The notes: generated by a model not told the origin, from the letters alone. A stretch of 64,000 nt of DNA from an uncultured archaeon (GCA_902385625.1 CABMGE010000019.1:1831-65830); one strand, 5' to 3'. Numbered from the stretch's first letter, positions 35,673 to 43,964 are shown. A program made the numbers and translations.

Positions 35673-35948
35673 TTATAAAAATTCTTCATTACAAATATCT
35701 CCACCAAGATATCTCAAATTTCTTGCTTTAAACTCATAAACATAATAAATTGTTATTGAAGAGTCGCTTGCACATTTAACTGCCTCTTGTGTCTTTCCAA
35801 TTGCGATTTTCAATGCTTCTTCAGAATCCTCATAAGTCCCTTCAATAAAATCATCTCCGCTAAACTTGTCTACACCAATGACAATGTATTTTCCATCAAC
35901 ATCTTTCCCATTTTCAATTGCTTCATTGATAAGAACTGTTAAGGACAT
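35673..35948 (-). CDS. Hypothetical protein
   Basis: 91 aa; start overlaps the stop of the PHP gene. Confidence 0.5.
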   Translation of the reverse strand: MSLTVLINEAIENGKDVDGKYIVIGVDKFSGDDFIEGTYEDSEEALKIAIGKTQEAVKCASDSSITIYYVYEFKARNLRYLGGDICNEEFL

Positions 35949-36841
35949 TTCAATACCTCTTCAAGTTTAATTGAAGGAATCTTAACATATCCCTGGTTAA
36001 GTAATTCTTCAAGTTCAGGACTTAATATATTCTCATCCATTCCAAGTATTTTTCTGTCAAATGTAGGCCCATGATAATCAGAACCATAACTTATAGGAAG
36101 GGAATTGCCTTCTGCAAATTTTCTAAATAATGCATAGTTAAATTTGTCAACAAATTTAGGTTGTTCCTCAAGTCCGTCTATTCCTTTGGCAAATAATTCC
36201 TCTGCTTCAGTTATATCTTTTGCATCTTTTGGAGGATGAGCCCAGATTATAACTCCTCCTGCATTATGAGTTTCATTCACTGCATCAGTTACTTCAACTC
36301 CAACATCTTCCAGACCATCAACTAAACCGCCCTTGCTAAAATAAGTTCGAAATCTTTCAAGTGGACTTTGTTCTGGAAACTCCCTTTCCATGATCTCTCT
36401 GCATCCAGGATTTTTCATCATTGCAGCAAATATATTATATTTTGCAAGTCTTGAATTTGGGAATTCTTTTAAAACTTCATCAAATGTTATTGGAAACCCA
36501 TATTCCCGAATTAAATTTATTCTTTCCTTGCATTTATTATTCTGAATATTCTTTGAATATGCTAAAAAGTCTTGGAACTTTTTATTGCCCGGATCAAAAT
36601 TAAGACCAAGCAAATGATATTTAGGAGTAGTTATTTCAACTCCCGGAATAAGAGTTATCCCGAGCTTGTCTGCTTCAGTTTTTGCTTCATAGTAACCTGC
36701 AGTATTATCATGGTCGGTTACTGCGAATATATTAATTCCCTTGAGTGCAGCAAGAGCCACATTTTCTCTTGGCTGGACATAAAGTCCATCAGAGTAATTA
36801 GTATGGGAATGCAGGTCAATGTATCTTTTTGTGTCTTTCAT
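35939..36841 (-). CDS. PHP domain phosphoesterase (TrpH/YciV-like)
   Basis: DLHSHTNYSDG, AVTDHD, PGVEI, AHP, GSDYHG; start ATG 36841. Confidence 0.9.
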   Translation of the reverse strand: MKDTKRYIDLHSHTNYSDGLYVQPRENVALAALKGINIFAVTDHDNTAGYYEAKTEADKLGITLIPGVEITTPKYHLLGLNFDPGNKKFQDFLAYSKNIQNNKCKERINLIREYGFPITFDEVLKEFPNSRLAKYNIFAAMMKNPGCREIMEREFPEQSPLERFRTYFSKGGLVDGLEDVGVEVTDAVNETHNAGGVIIWAHPPKDAKDITEAEELFAKGIDGLEEQPKFVDKFNYALFRKFAEGNSLPISYGSDYHGPTFDRKILGMDENILSPELEELLNQGYVKIPSIKLEEVLKCP

Positions 36842-36943
36842 ACTGTAAGTAATCAAAAGAAACATTTATATATTTCCTATATAATTTATATAAATAATAT
36901 AAAAAGCTTAATTTATTTAAGACAAAATAATCCTACAAGTAAA

Positions 36944-37846
36944 ATGAAAAGAAAAGTAATAAAACAAGCAAGTCAGGCATATACAATAACTCTTCCAATA
37001 GAATGGGTAAGACAAAACAATATTTCAAAGGACTCTGAACTGGATATAAATATTTCAGAAAAATCCCTGATAATAACAAACTTTGGCCAAATAGAACATA
37101 AAAGAATAAAACTTAATGTAGAAGGCCTAAATGACAGAAATATATCCAGAATAATAAAAGCATTATACGCAAATGGAGTAGATGAAATTGAACTTGAATC
37201 AAATGAAAACATATCTTCATCAATAATAAAACACCTTCATGATGTTATTGGATATGCACTTGTTTCTCAAAAAGATAACAAATTTATAATAAAAGATTTA
37301 GGAAGTGCAAACTATTCTGACCTTGATGAAATATTTAAAAGAGTCTTTCAGATGATACTTTCTTTTTATGAATCTGCAATAGAGGATATTTTCGGAAAAG
37401 AAAAAGAAACCTTGGACACTCTAATTGCAAGAGATCTTGAAATAAACAAATTCTCACTATATCTTCAAAGAGCAATTAATAAAATGTCTTATCATGATCC
37501 AATTAAAGGAAGAATACTCTTTACTTATTCATTTGAAATTGAAAAAATAGGAGATGAAATACAAAGATTATGGAGAACAAACATAAAGTATAAGGTAAAA
37601 AAATCAAAAGAACTAAAGAAATTAACAGAACAATCAAAAGAAGGACTTGAAAAAGCATTTGAGTTTTATTATCAGTTCAATACAAAAAAATCAGAAGAAA
37701 TAACCCTGCTGAGAGACAAAGTAAGGGAGTCTTCAATGAATCTTTCAGCAGACAAGTTTACAACAAGATTTATCAGGCACATTGTAAAGATAATTGAAGA
37801 AGCAGCAGATCTTTCTCATCTGACTTTAATGATAAAACTAGAATAA
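36944..37846 (+). CDS. AbrB/MazE-domain PhoU-family transcriptional regulator
   Basis: MKRKVIKQ...YTITLPIEW (AbrB-like) followed by PhoU helical repeats; start reassigned from 36572. Confidence 0.8.
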   Translation: MKRKVIKQASQAYTITLPIEWVRQNNISKDSELDINISEKSLIITNFGQIEHKRIKLNVEGLNDRNISRIIKALYANGVDEIELESNENISSSIIKHLHDVIGYALVSQKDNKFIIKDLGSANYSDLDEIFKRVFQMILSFYESAIEDIFGKEKETLDTLIARDLEINKFSLYLQRAINKMSYHDPIKGRILFTYSFEIEKIGDEIQRLWRTNIKYKVKKSKELKKLTEQSKEGLEKAFEFYYQFNTKKSEEITLLRDKVRESSMNLSADKFTTRFIRHIVKIIEEAADLSHLTLMIKLE

Positions 37847-39418: not shown

Positions 39419-39889
39419 TTAAACTAAATTTAACTCTTCATATGAAACAAGCTCTGCAAATATAGAGTTATCTACATAGTGAGTAGTCTTTTCATTAATC
39501 TTGCTCCTCCGATAGCAAATCCTAAGATCTCCCTCAGGGATCAAAAGTATTTCAGGATTAACAGAATGAAATTGATTTGCTGTAACATCAATAAATAACT
39601 TAGTCTTGGGATCATATACAAAATTATGGGAAATTGAAATACGAGTAGAAAAATTATTTTCAGAAATACTCTGAGTTTTATTTAAGTAATCCGAGCTTAT
39701 TGGTCCGCAATATTTCCCATAAACTAATCTAAATCCATCTTCTCCACAATATTTTTTGCATAATCTTCTTGAAGCAAGTGAACAAGAGTTAAATGGAAAA
39801 TCTTTTAGAGTTAGTTTAAACTCTTCAACATCTTTTCCAAGTATTTTTTCTATGTTCTCTCTTGTAATCTCCTGATAAAAATCTACCAT
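39419..39889 (-). CDS. Hypothetical protein
   Basis: 156 aa; C...H-N...D-x-T pattern loosely like a papain/transglutaminase triad. Confidence 0.55.
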   Translation of the reverse strand: MVDFYQEITRENIEKILGKDVEEFKLTLKDFPFNSCSLASRRLCKKYCGEDGFRLVYGKYCGPISSDYLNKTQSISENNFSTRISISHNFVYDPKTKLFIDVTANQFHSVNPEILLIPEGDLRICYRRSKINEKTTHYVDNSIFAELVSYEELNLV

Positions 39890-39920
39890 AATAGAAAAAT
39901 AGAATTAATTCTTATAAAGA

Positions 39921-40898
39921 TTATTGGTTTAAATCCCAATCATAATCCCTGACATTGCCATCCTTGCTTCTTCCAGCATAAAAAGTTCTATCATGGCCAT
40001 AGGCCTCGACTAATGCCCAAAGAGCAATCTCTTTTTCAGCTCGATTAAGTTTTCTCAATTTATCTCTAGACTCCAAAGACTCATCACGAGCAAGTACATT
40101 ATTTTCAAGCCTTAGATAATAATTGACAGTTTCCTGGCTAGGTATTGCAAATTGGCACATCTGAAGAGGTATAAGATTTTTATTTTCACTGATTTCATCC
40201 TGGATTAACTGCAAATATCCTGCAATTTCATGAGCGCAAATATTTACTACTCCTGAACTTTCCTTATCATCACTATATCGATATCTTATGTTAAATCTCT
40301 TAGAACCACAAGAATGATCACTTCCAATGTTTAAAGAAATTCCATATTTTTCAGGGCTATCAATAATTGGAACAGAAGTTAATTTAAATTGAATTCTTCT
40401 TTCTCCTTCAGTTCTGGAAGGAACTTCAATAACAACTTCAGCACCATCTATTCTTACTCGTTTTGCATCTGCATAAGGTTTTACCTTTATGAAAGTTCCA
40501 GGATTTTGATTAGCATATGCAAAAATTCTTGCTCCCTCCAAACATTCAATTAAAGAAACCTTTCTTTTTCTTTGATCCTTGCTTAAAGGTAAGAAACTAT
40601 AACCACAATAATTATGGCCCTTAAGAGAGTTAAAAGCCTCTTCCCTTAAAACAACAGGAACTCTCCCGTCATAAATAGCCTGTTTTTGACTGTAAAATCT
40701 TTTTGGCTTAACTTCAAAACCATGCTTCATAAATTTTCTTGCAGACTCAAATCCTCTTGGTAAAAATTCCGGAACTATCATATACTGGCCAGACTCTAGT
40801 TCTAGGGCATCAGTAATCTGACTTGTTTCTACAAGTGTCTTTTTCTTTATTTGAGCCGCAGTGCTTTCTTCAAAAAATACTTTTTTCATATTTGCCAT
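39921..40898 (-). CDS. Hypothetical protein with SWIM-like Zn motif
   Basis: SDHSC-x23-CAHEIA. Confidence 0.6.
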   Translation of the reverse strand: MANMKKVFFEESTAAQIKKKTLVETSQITDALELESGQYMIVPEFLPRGFESARKFMKHGFEVKPKRFYSQKQAIYDGRVPVVLREEAFNSLKGHNYCGYSFLPLSKDQRKRKVSLIECLEGARIFAYANQNPGTFIKVKPYADAKRVRIDGAEVVIEVPSRTEGERRIQFKLTSVPIIDSPEKYGISLNIGSDHSCGSKRFNIRYRYSDDKESSGVVNICAHEIAGYLQLIQDEISENKNLIPLQMCQFAIPSQETVNYYLRLENNVLARDESLESRDKLRKLNRAEKEIALWALVEAYGHDRTFYAGRSKDGNVRDYDWDLNQ

Positions 40899-40986
40899 TT
40901 TATTTAATATAATCCAAAGTTAAATAATCTATTTATAATTAAGAGGTGATAAATATAACCACAAAAAAAATAAAAAAACCTATACT

Positions 40987-41463
40987 TTAACCAATAAGTA
41001 TGCCGCGATCTTCATTTCTTGCACGAGATAACTTTCTTGATACATCCATTAGAACCGGATAAAGGCTCTGTGAAGTTGACTCTGAAAACTTAAGGTTTCT
41101 CATCACATTCATATAATCTTCCCTAGTTATTCTGCATTCAGGATTCATTCCAAAGTATAAATGTGTTTCAGATAAAGCTCTTTGTTCCTGAATCATTCCA
41201 TTAAGAATTTGACCATATGATGGAAACTCCTTGCAAAAAAGTTGAATTCCCTGCCTCATTCCACGAGCTTTCATTTTGTCTTCATATTCAACATTTGCAT
41301 AAACTCTGTCTCCAAGAAAAAAATTATCATATTCTGATAAGTCAAGTGACTTTGCAATCTTGGATCTTTGTCTGTCAATTTTTCCAGCCATGCTTTTGAT
41401 AGGAATAGATATTCTGTCTATTGCAACCAAATCAACTATTCTACTTTCAATATTATTTTCCAT
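40987..41463 (-). CDS. Hypothetical protein
   Basis: 158 aa with strong SD AAGGAGGT. Confidence 0.65.
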   Translation of the reverse strand: MENNIESRIVDLVAIDRISIPIKSMAGKIDRQRSKIAKSLDLSEYDNFFLGDRVYANVEYEDKMKARGMRQGIQLFCKEFPSYGQILNGMIQEQRALSETHLYFGMNPECRITREDYMNVMRNLKFSESTSQSLYPVLMDVSRKLSRARNEDRGILIG

Positions 41464-41499
41464 TTTTTGTTTACCTCCTTACAATCATTTATAAAAAGT

Positions 41500-42063
41500 C
41501 TATCCGACTTTACGCATCAATGATGCCTCCCGATCAACATTTTGAAAGAAAACTACCTCTGGAAAAGATTTTGAAACATCTTCTTGATAATCTTTCCAAG
41601 CAGGATCATCATTGCCCATATGCCATCTTATGATTAATGCTTCTTGAGGAGTTGGATGAATATACTGACTAAGAATAAAAACTGACTTTTCTCCATGTCC
41701 ATATGGAAAACTATCTTGAAATTTGTAAGGTTTTGATTCTGAACGATTCCCATCTTTCAATGAATTCTCAAAATAGACTCCAATTTTACAAAGATCATGG
41801 CAGATCCCAGTCAAAATTACACTTTCAAAAGGAACATTAAGATTATAATCACTAACTCGCTTTGAAAACTGTTTATAAACATCATAAGAATGTTCTGCAA
41901 GCCCGCCTGGATAATTAGAGTGAAACCTTGTGCTTGCAGGAGAGGTAAAAAAATTCCCATCACAGATAAAATCCACAAGATTACTAACTCCAAGACGATT
42001 TACATTAGAAAACAGATCTAAGATATTTCGTTTATTTTTTCCAATTTGTACTTTAGTTAACAT
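41500..42063 (-). CDS. HD-domain phosphohydrolase (YhaM-like/phage-type)
   Basis: FFTSPAS..FH...GGLAEHS, CHDLCK, GHGEKS, IRWHMG, D. Confidence 0.85.
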   Translation of the reverse strand: MLTKVQIGKNKRNILDLFSNVNRLGVSNLVDFICDGNFFTSPASTRFHSNYPGGLAEHSYDVYKQFSKRVSDYNLNVPFESVILTGICHDLCKIGVYFENSLKDGNRSESKPYKFQDSFPYGHGEKSVFILSQYIHPTPQEALIIRWHMGNDDPAWKDYQEDVSKSFPEVVFFQNVDREASLMRKVG

Positions 42064-43183
42064 GAATTTTACTCCTTTCTTGCCTGAAATATGCCTCTTT
42101 TACATGTTCAGTTGTAGAAATTTGTGATAAAGGTTTGTCATCCCTTATTCGCTTTAAAACTGCACTCCTAAGAGAATAGGATTTGCCATTTTCATATCCG
42201 CAAGAATGTTTATCACTTCCCTTTTGATAATTAATTGCAGAAACTTCAACAACAATGGAAGGATTTACAAAATAGTCGGGTTTTGAATATTTGACTCCAC
42301 GAATCATGTTAGGATTAAGAAAAACATCAGAAGGACATTCCAAAAGAAGATTATCTTTTACTATTGGATAAATAATCTTATTAAGCCCGCCAGTTTTTGC
42401 ATTCACCTTGCATAAGCTTTCGTATCTATTTTCTTTAGTCGAATAAGTACCTAGTAAAAGTTCATATAATCCTTTTTCATTTATGAATAATCCTAAAATA
42501 GTAAGATCCAAATTTTCTTTTCTCTTAACTTTTATCCAATCCCTTGGTTTTTTTCCAGAAATATATAATGAATCAGGATTTTTACATACCAACCCCTCAT
42601 AATTATCATTTACCAGCTCGTTAAACCAGTTACCTAGTTCTTCTTTACTGCAAATAAGACGTTGTGTACTTGGTGAAATTTTTTTCTCCAAAATGCCTTC
42701 AGTATATTTTCTCCTTTCACTCAGAGGTTCATGAATAAGCAGGCCATTATCCCAATACATAGTATCAAAAACTCTCAATGCAACAGGCATTTCAGAAACT
42801 ATTCCTGATGCGAGATACTCCTCTATTCCTTTTTTACTTATGTTAGACCTGAATCTTTTCTGAATAACATTAAAACCATCATGACCTATTTTTTTATCTC
42901 CAACAATTTCACAATCAATAATACAATCAGGCAATCTTTGAAGTGAAGAGTTTAATTCTGGAAAAAGGCATAGAATCACTTCATTCATACTTCTTGTATA
43001 GGCCTTTATTTTATTCCCTTTTTTATGAACTTGCATTCTATAACCATCTTCTTTTATCTCTCCAAAAGTAGTTCCATTATGTTCTTCGAATATTTGATTA
43101 TAAAGTTCATCTCCTGCGGCTCCAAGATCAATTGGATTCATAGGTTCTAGTGGTGTGAATATTTTTGTTTTCATAATTTTCAA
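42053..43183 (-). CDS. Minimal ATP-dependent DNA ligase (adenylation + OB domains, no N-terminal DNA-binding domain)
   Basis: Motif I EIKEDGYR, III DCEIV, IIIa VFD, IV EGLVCK, V WIKVK, VI RIRDDK; 376 aa. Confidence 0.88.
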   Translation of the reverse strand: MKIMKTKIFTPLEPMNPIDLGAAGDELYNQIFEEHNGTTFGEIKEDGYRMQVHKKGNKIKAYTRSMNEVILCLFPELNSSLQRLPDCIIDCEIVGDKKIGHDGFNVIQKRFRSNISKKGIEEYLASGIVSEMPVALRVFDTMYWDNGLLIHEPLSERRKYTEGILEKKISPSTQRLICSKEELGNWFNELVNDNYEGLVCKNPDSLYISGKKPRDWIKVKRKENLDLTILGLFINEKGLYELLLGTYSTKENRYESLCKVNAKTGGLNKIIYPIVKDNLLLECPSDVFLNPNMIRGVKYSKPDYFVNPSIVVEVSAINYQKGSDKHSCGYENGKSYSLRSAVLKRIRDDKPLSQISTTEHVKEAYFRQERSKIHVN

Positions 43184-43268
43184 AAATAAAAATAATACTT
43201 AATATTATGTGGGGATTATTATCACCACAAACACAAATATTTAAAAAGATTAAATTATTAATTATAAA

Positions 43269-43964
43269 ATGGAAGAATTAAAACAAGCTGGACTTACTGA
43301 AAATGAATCAAAGGTATATTTGGGACTCATAGAATTAGGCCCAAGTCTTGCAGGAGGGGTAGCTAGAAAAACAGGTCTCCATAGAAGAACTGTTTATGAC
43401 ACAACTGAAATGCTTATTCAAAAAGGACTTGTTGGATATATTCTAAAAAACAATAGGAGAATATTTCAGGCATCAAACCCAAACAGACTCATTGAAATTA
43501 TTCAGGAAAAACAAAACTTGCTTTTGCCATTTGTAGAATCAATTCAGCAAAAATATAATTCAACAAAAGAAAAAGAGGAAACAAATTTCTACAAGGGAAA
43601 AGAGGGACTCAAAACAGTTTTTGAAGAGCAGCTAGATTCAAAAGAAATTTTAATTCTTGGAGCTTCTCCAAAAGCATATGAAATACTTCAATTCTACTTC
43701 AAGTGGTATGATAAAACAAGAAAACAAAAAAAGATAAAATCAAGGATAATTGCATCAGATAAAAAAATATCAAATATCCCCTTAGCAGAAATAAAATATC
43801 TTCCAGAAAAATACACTAGCCCTGTTTCGGTAAATATTTATGAGAATAAAACTGCTATAATTGTATGGGCGAAAGATCCAATTGCAATTGTAATAAAAAA
43901 TAAAGAAATTGCAGATGCTTATAGGTCTTATTTTGAATTAATGTGGAAAATTGCAAGGAAATAA
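43269..43964 (+). CDS. TrmB-family transcriptional regulator
   Basis: GLTENESKVY, wHTH RRTVYD...LIQKGLV, C-terminal effector-binding domain ending FELMW. Confidence 0.88.
   Translation: MEELKQAGLTENESKVYLGLIELGPSLAGGVARKTGLHRRTVYDTTEMLIQKGLVGYILKNNRRIFQASNPNRLIEIIQEKQNLLLPFVESIQQKYNSTKEKEETNFYKGKEGLKTVFEEQLDSKEILILGASPKAYEILQFYFKWYDKTRKQKKIKSRIIASDKKISNIPLAEIKYLPEKYTSPVSVNIYENKTAIIVWAKDPIAIVIKNKEIADAYRSYFELMWKIARK

What the first reader, a model, noticed from the sequence alone, without database searches (positions are those of the whole stretch)
39419..43183. Compact operon: minimal ATP-dependent ligase + HD hydrolase + conserved-looking orphans (possible end-healing/sealing repair or anti-defence module)
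Seen: five co-oriented genes. The 376-aa ligase has all catalytic motifs (KEDG, EGLVCK, WIKVK, RIRDDK) but lacks the N-terminal DNA-binding domain found in the ~550-600-aa archaeal replicative ligases. Its stop overlaps the start of a phage-type HD phosphohydrolase by 11 nt. These are followed by a 158-aa orphan with a strong SD, a 325-aa Zn-motif protein and a 156-aa orphan. Established: HD or phosphatase domains paired with ligases occur in nucleic-acid end-healing systems, and short ligases are typical of viruses and NHEJ. Inference: an undescribed DNA or RNA break-repair unit, or a viral-derived module domesticated in this lineage.
Basis: partly seen in the sequence, partly recalled or inferred. 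Interest (0 to 1): 0.65.

Follow-up and report, generated by a model that had tools for sequence, protein, structure and literature searches.

The report
Regulated ligase–nuclease DNA repair operon
Besides its normal replication ligase, this tiny-celled (DPANN) archaeon carries a stripped-down DNA ligase coupled to a YhaM-like HD nuclease under a dedicated TrmB-type switch, probably an inducible trim-and-seal kit for broken DNA; only three of the five flagged genes form the operon.

Summary
The five co-oriented genes, the ligase motifs and the 11-nt ligase/HD overlap are all real, but the cluster is not one five-gene operon.

- **Operon:** the conserved unit is ligase–HD(–p158). It is transcribed divergently from a TrmB-family regulator gene and lies behind a conserved palindrome (GGTGAT-N4-ATCACC).
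- **Ligase:** it is an accessory enzyme, since a 572-aa full-length ligase lies on another contig. It belongs to a DPANN-only clade without a DNA-binding domain, next to Lig1-type ligases and apart from LigD/LigC and viral ones.
- **HD protein:** it is a stand-alone copy of the catalytic domain of YhaM, a 3'-to-5' exonuclease. YhaM is the only significant hit by both sequence profile and fold.
- **Co-conservation:** HD follows the ligase in 25 of 35 related loci, and the operator precedes 24 of 38 ligase units.
- **p325:** it is a separate transcription unit with its own operator copy, so it is probably in the same regulon.
- **p156:** it is a strain-specific orphan.

Viral origin and a defence role are not supported. 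The most likely function is inducible 3'-end cleaning plus nick sealing. The biochemistry is inferred, not shown.

The parts
43269..43964 (+). TrmB-family regulator gene (231 aa), divergent from the ligase operon; presumed to bind the operator
   Evidence: PF01978 E = 3e-13, 49.9 bits against a 25.6 cut-off. It lies next to the ligase in about 29 of 37 related loci and next to p158 in 11 of 13 loci that lack the ligase. A perfect operator occurs in 15 of 22 relatives that have the orthologue and in 0 of 38 without it.
43238..43247 (-). TATA-like box (TTTTTAAATA) of the ligase operon promoter (inferred)
   Evidence: Read from the sequence. A similar TTTATATA/TTTAAATA box sits just 5' of the palindrome in most related spacers.
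43208..43229 (.). Operator 1: imperfect palindrome TGTGGTGATAATAATCCCCACA (core 43211-43226)
   Evidence: Two sites with <=1 mismatch in the window against 0.06 expected. The genome has only 4 such sites and none for the control pattern. The site is conserved in nearly all TrmB-divergent spacers and upstream of 24 of 38 ligase units.
42053..43174 (-). Accessory ATP-dependent DNA ligase without a DNA-binding domain (373 aa from the ATG at 43174; the ORF list gives a TTG at 43183)
   Evidence: PF01068 E = 7.6e-34. Matches dnl1 positions 163-526 of 527. All catalytic motifs are invariant. It falls in a DPANN-only clade (100/99 support) next to Lig1-type ligases. The full-length ligase is elsewhere in the genome.
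41500..42063 (-). Stand-alone YhaM-type HD domain protein (187 aa), translationally coupled to the ligase by an 11-nt overlap; candidate 3'-end-processing nuclease
   Evidence: The family profile hits YhaM 9h3f at E = 3e-5 and Cbf1/YhaM 9o7t at 1e-3. The AF2 model has pLDDT 92. Foldseek finds YhaM 9h3f as the only significant hit, probability 1.00, TM 0.67 over 203 columns. H58, H89-D90, H123, H148 and D177 are invariant.
40987..41463 (-). p158: conserved DPANN protein of unknown fold and function; third gene of the operon
   Evidence: AAGGAGGT sits just upstream of the start, 36 nt after the HD stop. It follows ligase-HD in L049, L052, L074 and L194, and follows the ligase alone in L066, L070 and L072. 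It is the direct divergent partner of TrmB in 11 of 13 relatives. The AF2 model has pLDDT 81 with no PDB or BFVD match.
40963..40978 (-). T7-A-T8 run directly after the p158 stop; archaeal terminator-like end of the operon (inferred)
   Evidence: Read from the sequence.
40945..40960 (.). Operator 2: GGTTATATTTATCACC, upstream of p325
   Evidence: This is the second of the two window sites. The same palindrome precedes p325 homologues in L004, L162, L163, L169 and L172, and the p325-like gene in L045.
39921..40898 (-). p325: highly conserved DPANN protein (H-x-C...C-x-H motif) of unknown function; a separate transcription unit, probably in the same regulon
   Evidence: 180 homologues at 55-85% identity and 451 cluster representatives. 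No Pfam or PDB match. Neighbours vary between genomes, but the operator is often upstream.
39419..39889 (-). p156: strain-specific orphan ORF; no evidence that it belongs to the module
   Evidence: No homologue in 60 relatives, in 37 ligase loci or next to p325 homologues. No family match.

Best explanation
The locus is a regulated accessory DNA-repair operon of DPANN archaea, not a five-gene operon.

Shown:
- A TrmB-family regulator gene is transcribed divergently from a ligase-HD-p158 operon.
- A conserved palindrome (GGTGAT-N4-ATCACC) lies just downstream of a TATA-like box in the shared control region.
- A second copy of the palindrome precedes the next gene, p325.
- The ligase is a Lig1-derived enzyme that has lost its DNA-binding domain, and it is a second copy beside the replicative ligase.
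- The HD protein is a stand-alone homologue of the two-metal catalytic domain of YhaM, a 3'-to-5' exo(deoxy)ribonuclease, without YhaM's OB domain.

Inferred mechanism:
- The TrmB-like protein binds the palindrome, which overlaps the predicted transcription start, and keeps the operon (and p325) repressed until an unknown signal arrives, plausibly DNA damage.
- Once made in coupled amounts, the HD enzyme cleans 3' ends at nicks or gaps. It would trim damaged, blocked or unpaired 3' nucleotides and possibly remove 3'-phosphate.
- The ligase, adenylated on K44, then seals the 3'-OH/5'-phosphate nick.
- p158 and p325 are unknown accessory members of the same regulon.
- p156 is unrelated.
For: Accessory status: a 572-aa full-length ligase with a DNA-binding domain lies on contig C23.

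Ligase class: NTase and OB domains only, motifs invariant. It forms one DPANN clade (100/99) beside full-length Lig1-type ligases and is separated 100/100 from LigD/LigC-like and viral ligases.

HD protein: the profile hit to YhaM/Cbf1 includes the PAxTxxH...GLxxH...HDxxK signature. YhaM is the only significant fold hit, probability 1.0 and TM 0.67. Six metal-ligand-type residues are invariant. YhaM is a two-metal 3'-deoxyribonuclease and is reported to be LexA-regulated (PMC12107432). There is also weak similarity to the Cas3 HD nuclease domain.

Co-conservation: HD lies directly downstream of the ligase, often overlapping it, in 25 of 35 loci, and TrmB is adjacent in about 29 of 37. The full TrmB | operator | ligase-HD-p158 arrangement recurs in L049, L052, L074 and L194.

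Operator:
- 2 sites in the window against 0.06 expected.
- Only 4 sites in the genome; the other two lie inside coding sequence.
- 27 of the 28 sites in 449 kb of ligase loci are promoter-proximal to the ligase, p158, a p325-like gene, PARP or a gene preceding the ligase.
- It is present upstream of the ligase even where TrmB is not the divergent neighbour.
- A perfect site occurs in 15 of 22 relatives with the TrmB orthologue and in 0 of 38 without it, with 0 control matches.
- It is absent at 7 TrmB paralogue loci.

DNA-break context: in L045 a WGR-PARP_reg-PARP gene sits under the same operator directly upstream of ligase-HD. Endonuclease V and AP-endonuclease-fold genes lie beside the module in L194.

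Operon limits: 11-nt overlap, Shine-Dalgarno sequence, T-run and separate TATA-like box.
Against:
- The YhaM match is remote (16% identity, Foldseek E = 6.6e-4). The protein also lacks the OB domain through which YhaM achieves its enhanced substrate binding.
- HD enzymes of this size can be nucleotidases or phosphatases.
- The same HD family is common in Firmicutes and phages with no ligase nearby.
- Ten of 35 ligase loci lack HD, so the ligase does not strictly need it.
- A pure exonuclease would widen a nick, so a polymerase step that has not been identified here would be needed.
- The TrmB-operator link rests on co-occurrence. Because the site usually lies beside the gene, part of that co-occurrence may be simple linkage.
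- The DNA-damage signal is inferred from one PARP-bearing locus and from analogy.
Confidence: 0.6

Rival explanations
1. Classical end-healing. The HD protein would be a 3'-phosphatase or 2',3'-cyclic phosphodiesterase, as in HD-Pnk enzymes. It would convert 3'-phosphate ends to 3'-OH for the ligase and would not act as an exonuclease.
For: HD-domain end-healing enzymes exist next to ATP-dependent ligases. An example is the radiation-induced Deinococcus radiodurans DRB0098-0100 operon, with an HD-Pnk, a macro-domain protein and a ligase that has no conventional DNA-binding motif (PMC1997131). The two-metal ligand set is compatible with phosphoesterase chemistry. This route avoids the need for gap filling.
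Against: No similarity to HD-Pnk or any phosphatase-type HD protein reached significance. YhaM, a nuclease, is the only significant hit by both profile and fold. No kinase partner is present. The HD phosphatase activity of DRB0098 was itself not demonstrated.
Confidence: 0.15
2. Processing of imported or scavenged DNA rather than repair of the cell's own genome. The YhaM-like nuclease would trim incoming single-stranded DNA and the minimal ligase would join fragments, in a host-dependent symbiont that relies on foreign nucleic acids.
For: In Bacillus, YhaM is needed for uptake and maturation of transforming ssDNA (PMC12107432). The minimal bacterial Lig E ligases have been proposed to act in competence (PMC7470946). 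The module is patchy among close relatives, being absent from all 60, as accessory traits often are.
Against: By direct reading the ligase has no obvious hydrophobic signal sequence, and no uptake-machinery gene was recognised among the conserved neighbours. The genes found beside the module elsewhere are PARP, endonuclease V and an AP-endonuclease-fold protein, which suggests damage repair.
Confidence: 0.1
3. An RNA repair or RNA processing pair. The ligase would join RNA, and the HD protein would act as a 3'-5' exoribonuclease, which was YhaM's first described activity.
For: YhaM is also an exoribonuclease (PMC11347170). The ligase has a weak PF09414 RNA_ligase hit, E = 0.0012.
Against: The ligase keeps the OB domain with motif VI and nests beside Lig1-type DNA ligases. 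The RNA_ligase hit is below the curated cut-off and reflects the shared nucleotidyltransferase fold. PARP and base-excision genes are nearby in relatives.
Confidence: 0.05
4. A domesticated viral or mobile cassette, or an anti-phage defence or anti-defence module.
For: The HD protein matches PHROG families and has 32-38% identical homologues in gut phages and Lak megaphages. The ligase-HD pair is absent from all 60 close relatives.
Against: No viral contig has a ligase more than 28% identical. The ligase clade is purely DPANN and separate from the viral ligases. There is no tRNA gene and no shift in G+C. The flanks (PHP, AbrB/PhoU-like, TrmB, FeeM-like and K-channel genes) are syntenic in L045, L046 and L194. 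No PADLOC system matches.
Confidence: 0.03
5. Chance neighbours: the genes simply happen to lie together.
For: This holds for p156. It partly holds for p325, whose neighbours differ between genomes.
Against: It is refuted for the ligase, HD, p158, TrmB and the operator by their recurrence across about 38 loci whose ligases are only 33-68% identical.
Confidence: 0.02

Closest known systems
Archaeal/eukaryotic Lig1-type ATP-dependent DNA ligases (e.g. PDB 4eq5, 2cfm, 3rr5, 2hiv)
   Same: These are the best sequence matches (E = 2e-25 to 1e-21). The NTase and OB core and motifs I-VI are the same. The short DPANN clade sits beside them in the tree.
   Different: The window ligase lacks the whole N-terminal DNA-binding domain. 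It is a second, accessory copy, patchily distributed, and sits in an operon with a nuclease.
Minimal two-domain bacterial and viral ligases (Lig C, Lig E, Chlorella virus ligase; review PMC7470946)
   Same: The architecture is NTase plus OB only. Such enzymes are known to seal DNA without encircling it, and Lig C works with dedicated repair partners.
   Different: These are different lineages. The DPANN clade is separated 100/100 from the LigD/LigC-like and viral sequences sampled. No Lig E-type signal peptide is seen on direct reading. The genome has no Ku.
YhaM / Cbf1, HD-domain 3'-5' exo(deoxy)ribonuclease of Firmicutes (PDB 9h3f, 9o7t; PMC12107432)
   Same: It is the only significant structural and profile match, and the match covers the whole HD-domain chain. 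Both share an extended two-metal His/Asp motif and the PAxTxxH signature.
   Different: There is no N-terminal OB domain. The identity is 16%. The second-half ligands are spaced differently: H123 and H148 here, against H250/H251 in YhaM. The activity is untested.
Deinococcus radiodurans DRB0098-DRB0100 operon (PMC1997131)
   Same: An accessory ATP-dependent ligase with no conventional DNA-binding motif sits in an operon with an HD-domain end-processing enzyme and is induced by DNA damage. The parallel extends to ADP-ribose: a macro-domain protein there, and a PARP in the related locus L045 here.
   Different: The HD protein there is fused to a polynucleotide kinase and is of another HD subfamily. 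The ligase is bacterial and unrelated in lineage. The regulation differs.
LigD 3'-phosphoesterase and archaeal NHEJ sets (PMC3082917; the Methanocella Ku/Lig/Pol/PE set, from my own knowledge)
   Same: The logic is the same: a 3'-end-cleaning enzyme paired with a repair ligase.
   Different: The PE fold is unrelated to HD. There is no Ku and no primase-polymerase partner was found. The ligase is not of the LigD type.
TrmB-family transcription regulators (Pfam PF01978)
   Same: Both have the N-terminal winged-helix domain and a palindromic operator next to the TATA box, in a typical archaeal repressor geometry.
   Different: The protein is short (231 aa) and no sugar-binding C-terminal domain was detected. 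Its targets are DNA-metabolism genes and unknowns, not sugar genes. It is one of 5 paralogues in this genome.

Membership tests
ATP-dependent DNA ligase (nucleotidyltransferase superfamily) | Adenylation domain with motifs I (KxDG), III, IIIa, IV and V | tested here: met
   PF01068 E = 7.6e-34, 117.6 bits against a 26.2 cut-off. K44, D46, G47, F139-D140, E196-G197...K201, K218 and K220 are invariant in 34 sequences.
ATP-dependent DNA ligase (nucleotidyltransferase superfamily) | C-terminal OB domain with motif VI (RxDK) | tested here: met
   The match to dnl1 runs to position 526 of 527. R347, D349 and K350 are invariant. PF04679 on its own is just under its cut-off, 24.7 against 27.5 bits.
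Lig1-type replicative ligase (three-domain) | N-terminal alpha-helical DNA-binding domain (PF04675) | tested here: not met
   The only PF04675 match in the genome is on contig C23, in the 572-aa ligase. The window ligase starts at dnl1 position 163.
LigD/LigC NHEJ ligases | Membership of the LigD/LigC clade, with Ku in the genome | tested here: not met
   It is separated 100/100 from the LigD/LigC-like sequences in the tree. The NHEJ models score far below their cut-offs. The genome has no Ku (the genome is 88% complete).
HD superfamily metal-dependent phosphohydrolases | H...HD...D metal-binding motif on the HD fold | tested here: met
   H58, H89-D90, H123, H148 and D177 are invariant. PF01966 is matched by 22 of 26 family members, but by the window protein only at E = 0.014. 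The model has pLDDT 92.
YhaM-type HD 3'-5' exonucleases | HD catalytic domain of the YhaM type (fold and signature) | tested here: met
   Profile E = 3e-5 to 9h3f. By Foldseek it is the top and only significant hit, probability 1.00 and TM 0.67 over 203 columns.
YhaM-type HD 3'-5' exonucleases | N-terminal OB nucleic-acid-binding domain | tested here: not met
   The 187-aa protein aligns only with YhaM residues from about 103 to 314. No OB segment is present (domain limits from PMC12107432).
YhaM-type HD 3'-5' exonucleases | Mn-dependent 3'-5' exonuclease activity on ssDNA or RNA | not testable with these tools
   This needs an enzyme assay.
HD-Pnk end-healing enzymes | HD phosphoesterase fused to, or paired with, a 5'-OH polynucleotide kinase | tested here: not met
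   The HD protein is single-domain. No kinase domain was found in any of the window proteins scanned.
TrmB-family regulators | N-terminal TrmB winged-helix DNA-binding domain | tested here: met
   PF01978 E = 3e-13, residues 4-71.
TrmB-family regulators | C-terminal sugar-binding effector domain | tested here: not met
   There is no Pfam match beyond residue 71 at E <= 0.01. The NCBIfam TrmB equivalogs score far below their cut-offs.
Known anti-phage defence systems (PADLOC) | A match of the component proteins to defence-system models | tested here: not met
   There are only weak Cas3-HD domain hits for the HD protein (E = 5e-5) and nothing for the other proteins.
Provirus or mobile element | Viral relatives of the cargo, an att/tRNA site and a composition shift | tested here: not met
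   The best viral ligase is 28% identical. There is no tRNA gene, the G+C content is flat, and the flanks are syntenic in relatives. Integrases were not searched for specifically.

The most novel reading that the evidence does not exclude
The ligase-HD operon is one cargo of a previously undescribed, modular regulon of Pace-, Woese- and Nanoarchaeota. The regulon is defined by one TrmB-like repressor and the palindrome GGTGAT-N4-ATCACC. Its interchangeable targets are a DBD-less ligase, a YhaM-like nuclease, a WGR-PARP, and two protein families of unknown fold or function (p158, p325). If the inducing signal is DNA damage, this would be the first DNA-damage-response regulon defined for DPANN archaea. 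It would also assign p158 and p325 to DNA repair.
Probability: 0.3. Interest if true: 0.75.

Novelty: new variant of a known kind. Interest (0 to 1): 0.55.

Why it matters
DPANN archaea have tiny genomes and few recognisable repair or regulatory systems. Almost nothing is known about how they sense or mend DNA damage.

This locus offers a compact system that can be tested directly. It has a defined operator (two copies here, and essentially one locus per genome in relatives), a candidate repressor, and a short list of targets.

It also shows a way to build a repair ligase that was not found in the literature searched: a Lig1-type enzyme that has lost its DNA-binding domain and is coupled to the catalytic domain of a YhaM-type nuclease.

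Finally, it points to two widespread protein families with no known relatives (p158, p325) as candidate repair factors. The small ligase and nuclease may also be useful as enzymes.

Tried and rejected
1. **p158 as the missing ligase DNA-binding domain supplied in trans.** The model is alpha/beta (pLDDT 81) and has no PDB or viral fold match. The idea is not supported.
2. **PDB hit of the p158 profile to CroV588 (E = 1e-8).** This is an artefact of summing nine weak matches to a leucine-rich-repeat protein; no single stretch is significant.
3. **Viral origin.** Viral-contig ligases are at most 28% identical.
4. **Defence system.** PADLOC gives only weak Cas3-HD domain hits.
5. **NHEJ.** The genome has no Ku, and the ligase is not LigD-like.
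6. **The other two operator-like sites in the genome (C11:40860, C13:6646).** One lies within a surface-protein gene and the other in the last codons of a small ORF just upstream of a membrane-protein gene, so both are probably chance.
7. **p325.** No Pfam or PDB relatives and no informative fusions among 451 representatives.
8. **Non-coding RNAs.** No Rfam family or tRNA gene in the window. The sigma-70 promoter and intrinsic-terminator scan is at background and does not apply to archaea.
10. **Literature.** No paper combines DPANN, an ATP-dependent ligase and an HD domain.

Full report
**Observation.**
- The first is an ATP-dependent DNA ligase (PF01068 E = 7.6e-34). It aligns with positions 163-526 of the 527-position dnl1 model, so it has the adenylation and OB domains but no N-terminal DNA-binding domain.
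- Its motifs (K44 in KEDG, EGLVCK, WIKVK, RIRDDK) are invariant in 34 family members.
- The real start is probably the ATG at 43174 (373 aa, identical to database protein P0121).
- The ligase stop overlaps the HD start by 11 nt. An AAGGAGGT precedes the 158-aa gene.
- The window has flat G+C (about 30%), no tRNA gene and no Rfam match.

**Is it the only ligase?** No. The genome is 1.34 Mb in 27 contigs and 88% complete, and homologues of the window's proteins are labelled Pacearchaeota or Nanoarchaeota. It has a 572-aa ligase with the PF04675 DNA-binding domain on contig C23. That ligase clusters with the full-length ligases of relatives. The window ligase is therefore an accessory enzyme.

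**Which genes belong together?**
- *Close relatives.* Among 60 related genomes none has an orthologue of the short ligase: all matches are at most 32% identical, mostly to their full-length ligases. None has the HD gene, 14 have p158 and none has p156.
- *p325.* In contrast, p325 is a strongly conserved family (180 hits at 55-85% identity; 451 cluster representatives), and its neighbours vary.
- *The ligase family.* Metagenome and MAG data hold about 70 short ligases at 35-68% identity. I fetched 37 such loci and scored their ORFs.
- *HD.* It lies directly downstream of the ligase, usually overlapping or abutting it, in 25 of 35 assessable loci.
- *TrmB.* A TrmB-family gene is adjacent, mostly divergent, in about 29 of 37 loci.
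- *p158.* It follows ligase-HD in L049, L052 and L074, and follows the ligase alone in L066, L070 and L072.
- *The rest.* A p325-like gene (27% identical) and a p99-like gene appear only in L045. p156 never appears.
- *Starting from the HD side.* L194 again shows TrmB | ligase-HD-p158. A Firmicute HD homologue has no ligase nearby.
- *Relatives without ligase and HD.* There, p158 sits directly and divergently beside the TrmB orthologue in 11 of 13 loci, or p325 does (L004, L162).

So the position beside TrmB is a slot that carries ligase, HD, p158, p325 and, once, PARP in varying combinations.

**A conserved operator.** The TrmB-divergent spacers share a palindrome, consensus TGTGGTGAT-N4-6-ATCACCnCA. 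It lies just 3' of a TATA-like box, whichever gene follows.
- The window has two copies with at most one mismatch: 43211-43226 between TrmB and the ligase, and 40945-40960 upstream of p325. The number expected by chance is 0.06.
- The whole genome has only four such sites and none for the reversed control pattern. The other two lie inside coding sequence, one within a surface-protein gene and one in the last codons of a small ORF.
- In 449 kb of 38 ligase loci there are 28 sites. Twenty-one fall in the 1.9% of sequence within 200 nt upstream of the ligase unit. Six of the other seven lie upstream of the ligase a little further away (L066, L072), upstream of a 195-aa gene preceding the ligase (L051), directly upstream of the ligase in L045 (behind PARP), upstream of the p325-like gene (L045), or upstream of p158 (L082).
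- The site is present upstream of the ligase even where TrmB is not the divergent neighbour: 10 of these 20 remaining loci have a site with at most one mismatch close to the ligase start, against a 1.4% background.
- Across 60 relatives, a perfect site occurs in 15 of the 22 genomes that have the TrmB orthologue and in none of the 38 that lack it (my own Fisher estimate is p of about 3e-9), with no control hits.
- The site is absent at seven TrmB paralogue loci.
- The binding itself is inferred, and part of the co-occurrence may simply reflect linkage of the site to the gene.

**Operon limits.** The overlap, the 36-nt spacer with a Shine-Dalgarno sequence, the T7-A-T8 run after p158, and the separate TATA-like box plus operator before p325 define two units. 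One is the ligase-HD-p158 operon. The other starts at p325 and probably belongs to the same regulon. Nothing supports p156 as a member.

**What the HD protein is.**
- It has no significant Pfam hit of its own.
- A 26-sequence family profile hits only YhaM/Cbf1 in the PDB (9h3f E = 3e-5; 9o7t E = 1e-3). The match includes the PAxTxxH...GLxxH...HDxxK signature.
- The AlphaFold model is confident (pLDDT 92). In Foldseek, YhaM is the top and only significant hit (probability 1.00, TM 0.67 over 203 columns), spanning the whole resolved HD-domain chain.
- YhaM is a hexameric, two-metal 3'-deoxyribonuclease and exoribonuclease, and is reported to be LexA-regulated (PMC12107432).
- The window protein keeps six invariant His/Asp ligand-type residues but lacks YhaM's OB domain.
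- 'YhaM-like nuclease domain' is therefore better supported than 'phosphatase'. Neither activity has been shown.

**What the ligase is.** A maximum-likelihood tree of 92 ligase cores places all 36 short DPANN ligases in one clade (100/99). That clade sits beside the full-length Lig1-type enzymes and is separated 100/100 from the LigD/LigC-like bacterial and viral sequences. A basal five-member subclade lacks HD, and the HD partner is confined to the 31-member subclade. No viral contig has a close relative. The genome has no Ku, no PARP and no second copy of any module gene. PADLOC finds no defence system.

**Context suggesting DNA breaks.** In L045 (TrmB 84% and ligase 68% identical to the window's) a WGR-PARP_reg-PARP protein (E = 7e-33) and a 136-aa gene lie between TrmB and ligase-HD. 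That locus has operators before PARP, before the ligase and before the p325-like gene. Endonuclease V and AP-endonuclease-fold genes flank the module in L194. The closest published operon logic is the radiation-induced Deinococcus DRB0098-0100 set: HD-Pnk, a macro-domain protein, and an ATP ligase with no conventional DNA-binding motif (PMC1997131).

**Most likely mechanism (inferred).**
- The TrmB-like dimer binds the palindrome, which overlaps the predicted transcription start, and represses the operon and p325.
- On an unknown signal, ligase and HD are made in coupled amounts.
- HD cleans 3' ends.
- The ligase seals the nick.
- p158 (basic, with a fold that has no match in the PDB or BFVD) and p325 are unknown accessory factors.

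**Rivals.** These are phosphatase-type end healing, processing of imported DNA, RNA repair, and a viral or defence origin. They are weighed in their own section.

**Earlier notes of this scan.** Notes on other genomes (e1-898004, e1-1499237) describe the same kind of module. I saw them only after reaching this reading, and I tested each element here. They are not independent evidence.

**Verdict.** This is a new variant of a known kind (a ligase paired with an end-processing enzyme), with an undescribed regulator-operator layer.

Noticed in passing
L045:5929-7263 (+), with L045:7398-7808: A DPANN contig syntenic with the window encodes a WGR-PARP_reg-PARP protein (444 aa, PF00644 E = 7e-33) and a 136-aa unknown, inserted between TrmB and ligase-HD. 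The locus has three operator copies. Archaeal PARPs are rare; this one is tied to a ligase-nuclease operon.
   Followed up: partly
window 39921-40898 (-): p325 belongs to a large DPANN family of unknown function (451 representatives at 50% clustering, all about 320-370 aa). It has a nearly invariant H-x-C...C-x-H motif and no Pfam or PDB relative. It often carries the TrmB operator upstream.
   Followed up: partly
window 40987-41463 (-): The p158 family gives a confident alpha/beta model (pLDDT 81) with no match in the PDB or BFVD. In many relatives it is the sole divergent partner of the TrmB orthologue.
   Followed up: partly
window 35939-37846; L045:13740-15703; L046:4636-6455; L194:7236-9064: A PHP-domain phosphoesterase gene and a divergently transcribed AbrB/MazE-PhoU-like gene stay within a few kb of the module in four loci. 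The PHP enzyme could be another end-processing activity.
   Followed up: no
G000 contigs C1, C7 (two copies), C25; relatives: The TrmB-like family is expanded: 5 paralogues in this 1.3-Mb genome and up to 13 in relatives. Only the orthologue group carries the GGTGAT-N4-ATCACC site.
   Followed up: partly
G046, G048, G051, G053, G056, G058, G060, G043: Several relatives have a second, different short ligase (311-367-aa frames, 25-30% identical to the window ligase). This suggests another accessory ligase type in the order.
   Followed up: no
L073:6983-8091 and L082:6107-7062: In two loci the short ligase is split into two frames, which suggests decay of the gene. This fits the patchy, dispensable distribution.
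   Followed up: no
L072:1020-1275: Here the spacer between the operator and the ligase is 256 nt long and holds several G+C-rich inverted repeats (e.g. CCACCTGTCAAAGACAGGTGG) that are absent from the other loci.
   Followed up: no
L051:4675-5262 (+): A 195-aa gene with no Pfam match lies between the operator and the ligase. It may be another cargo of the regulon.
   Followed up: no
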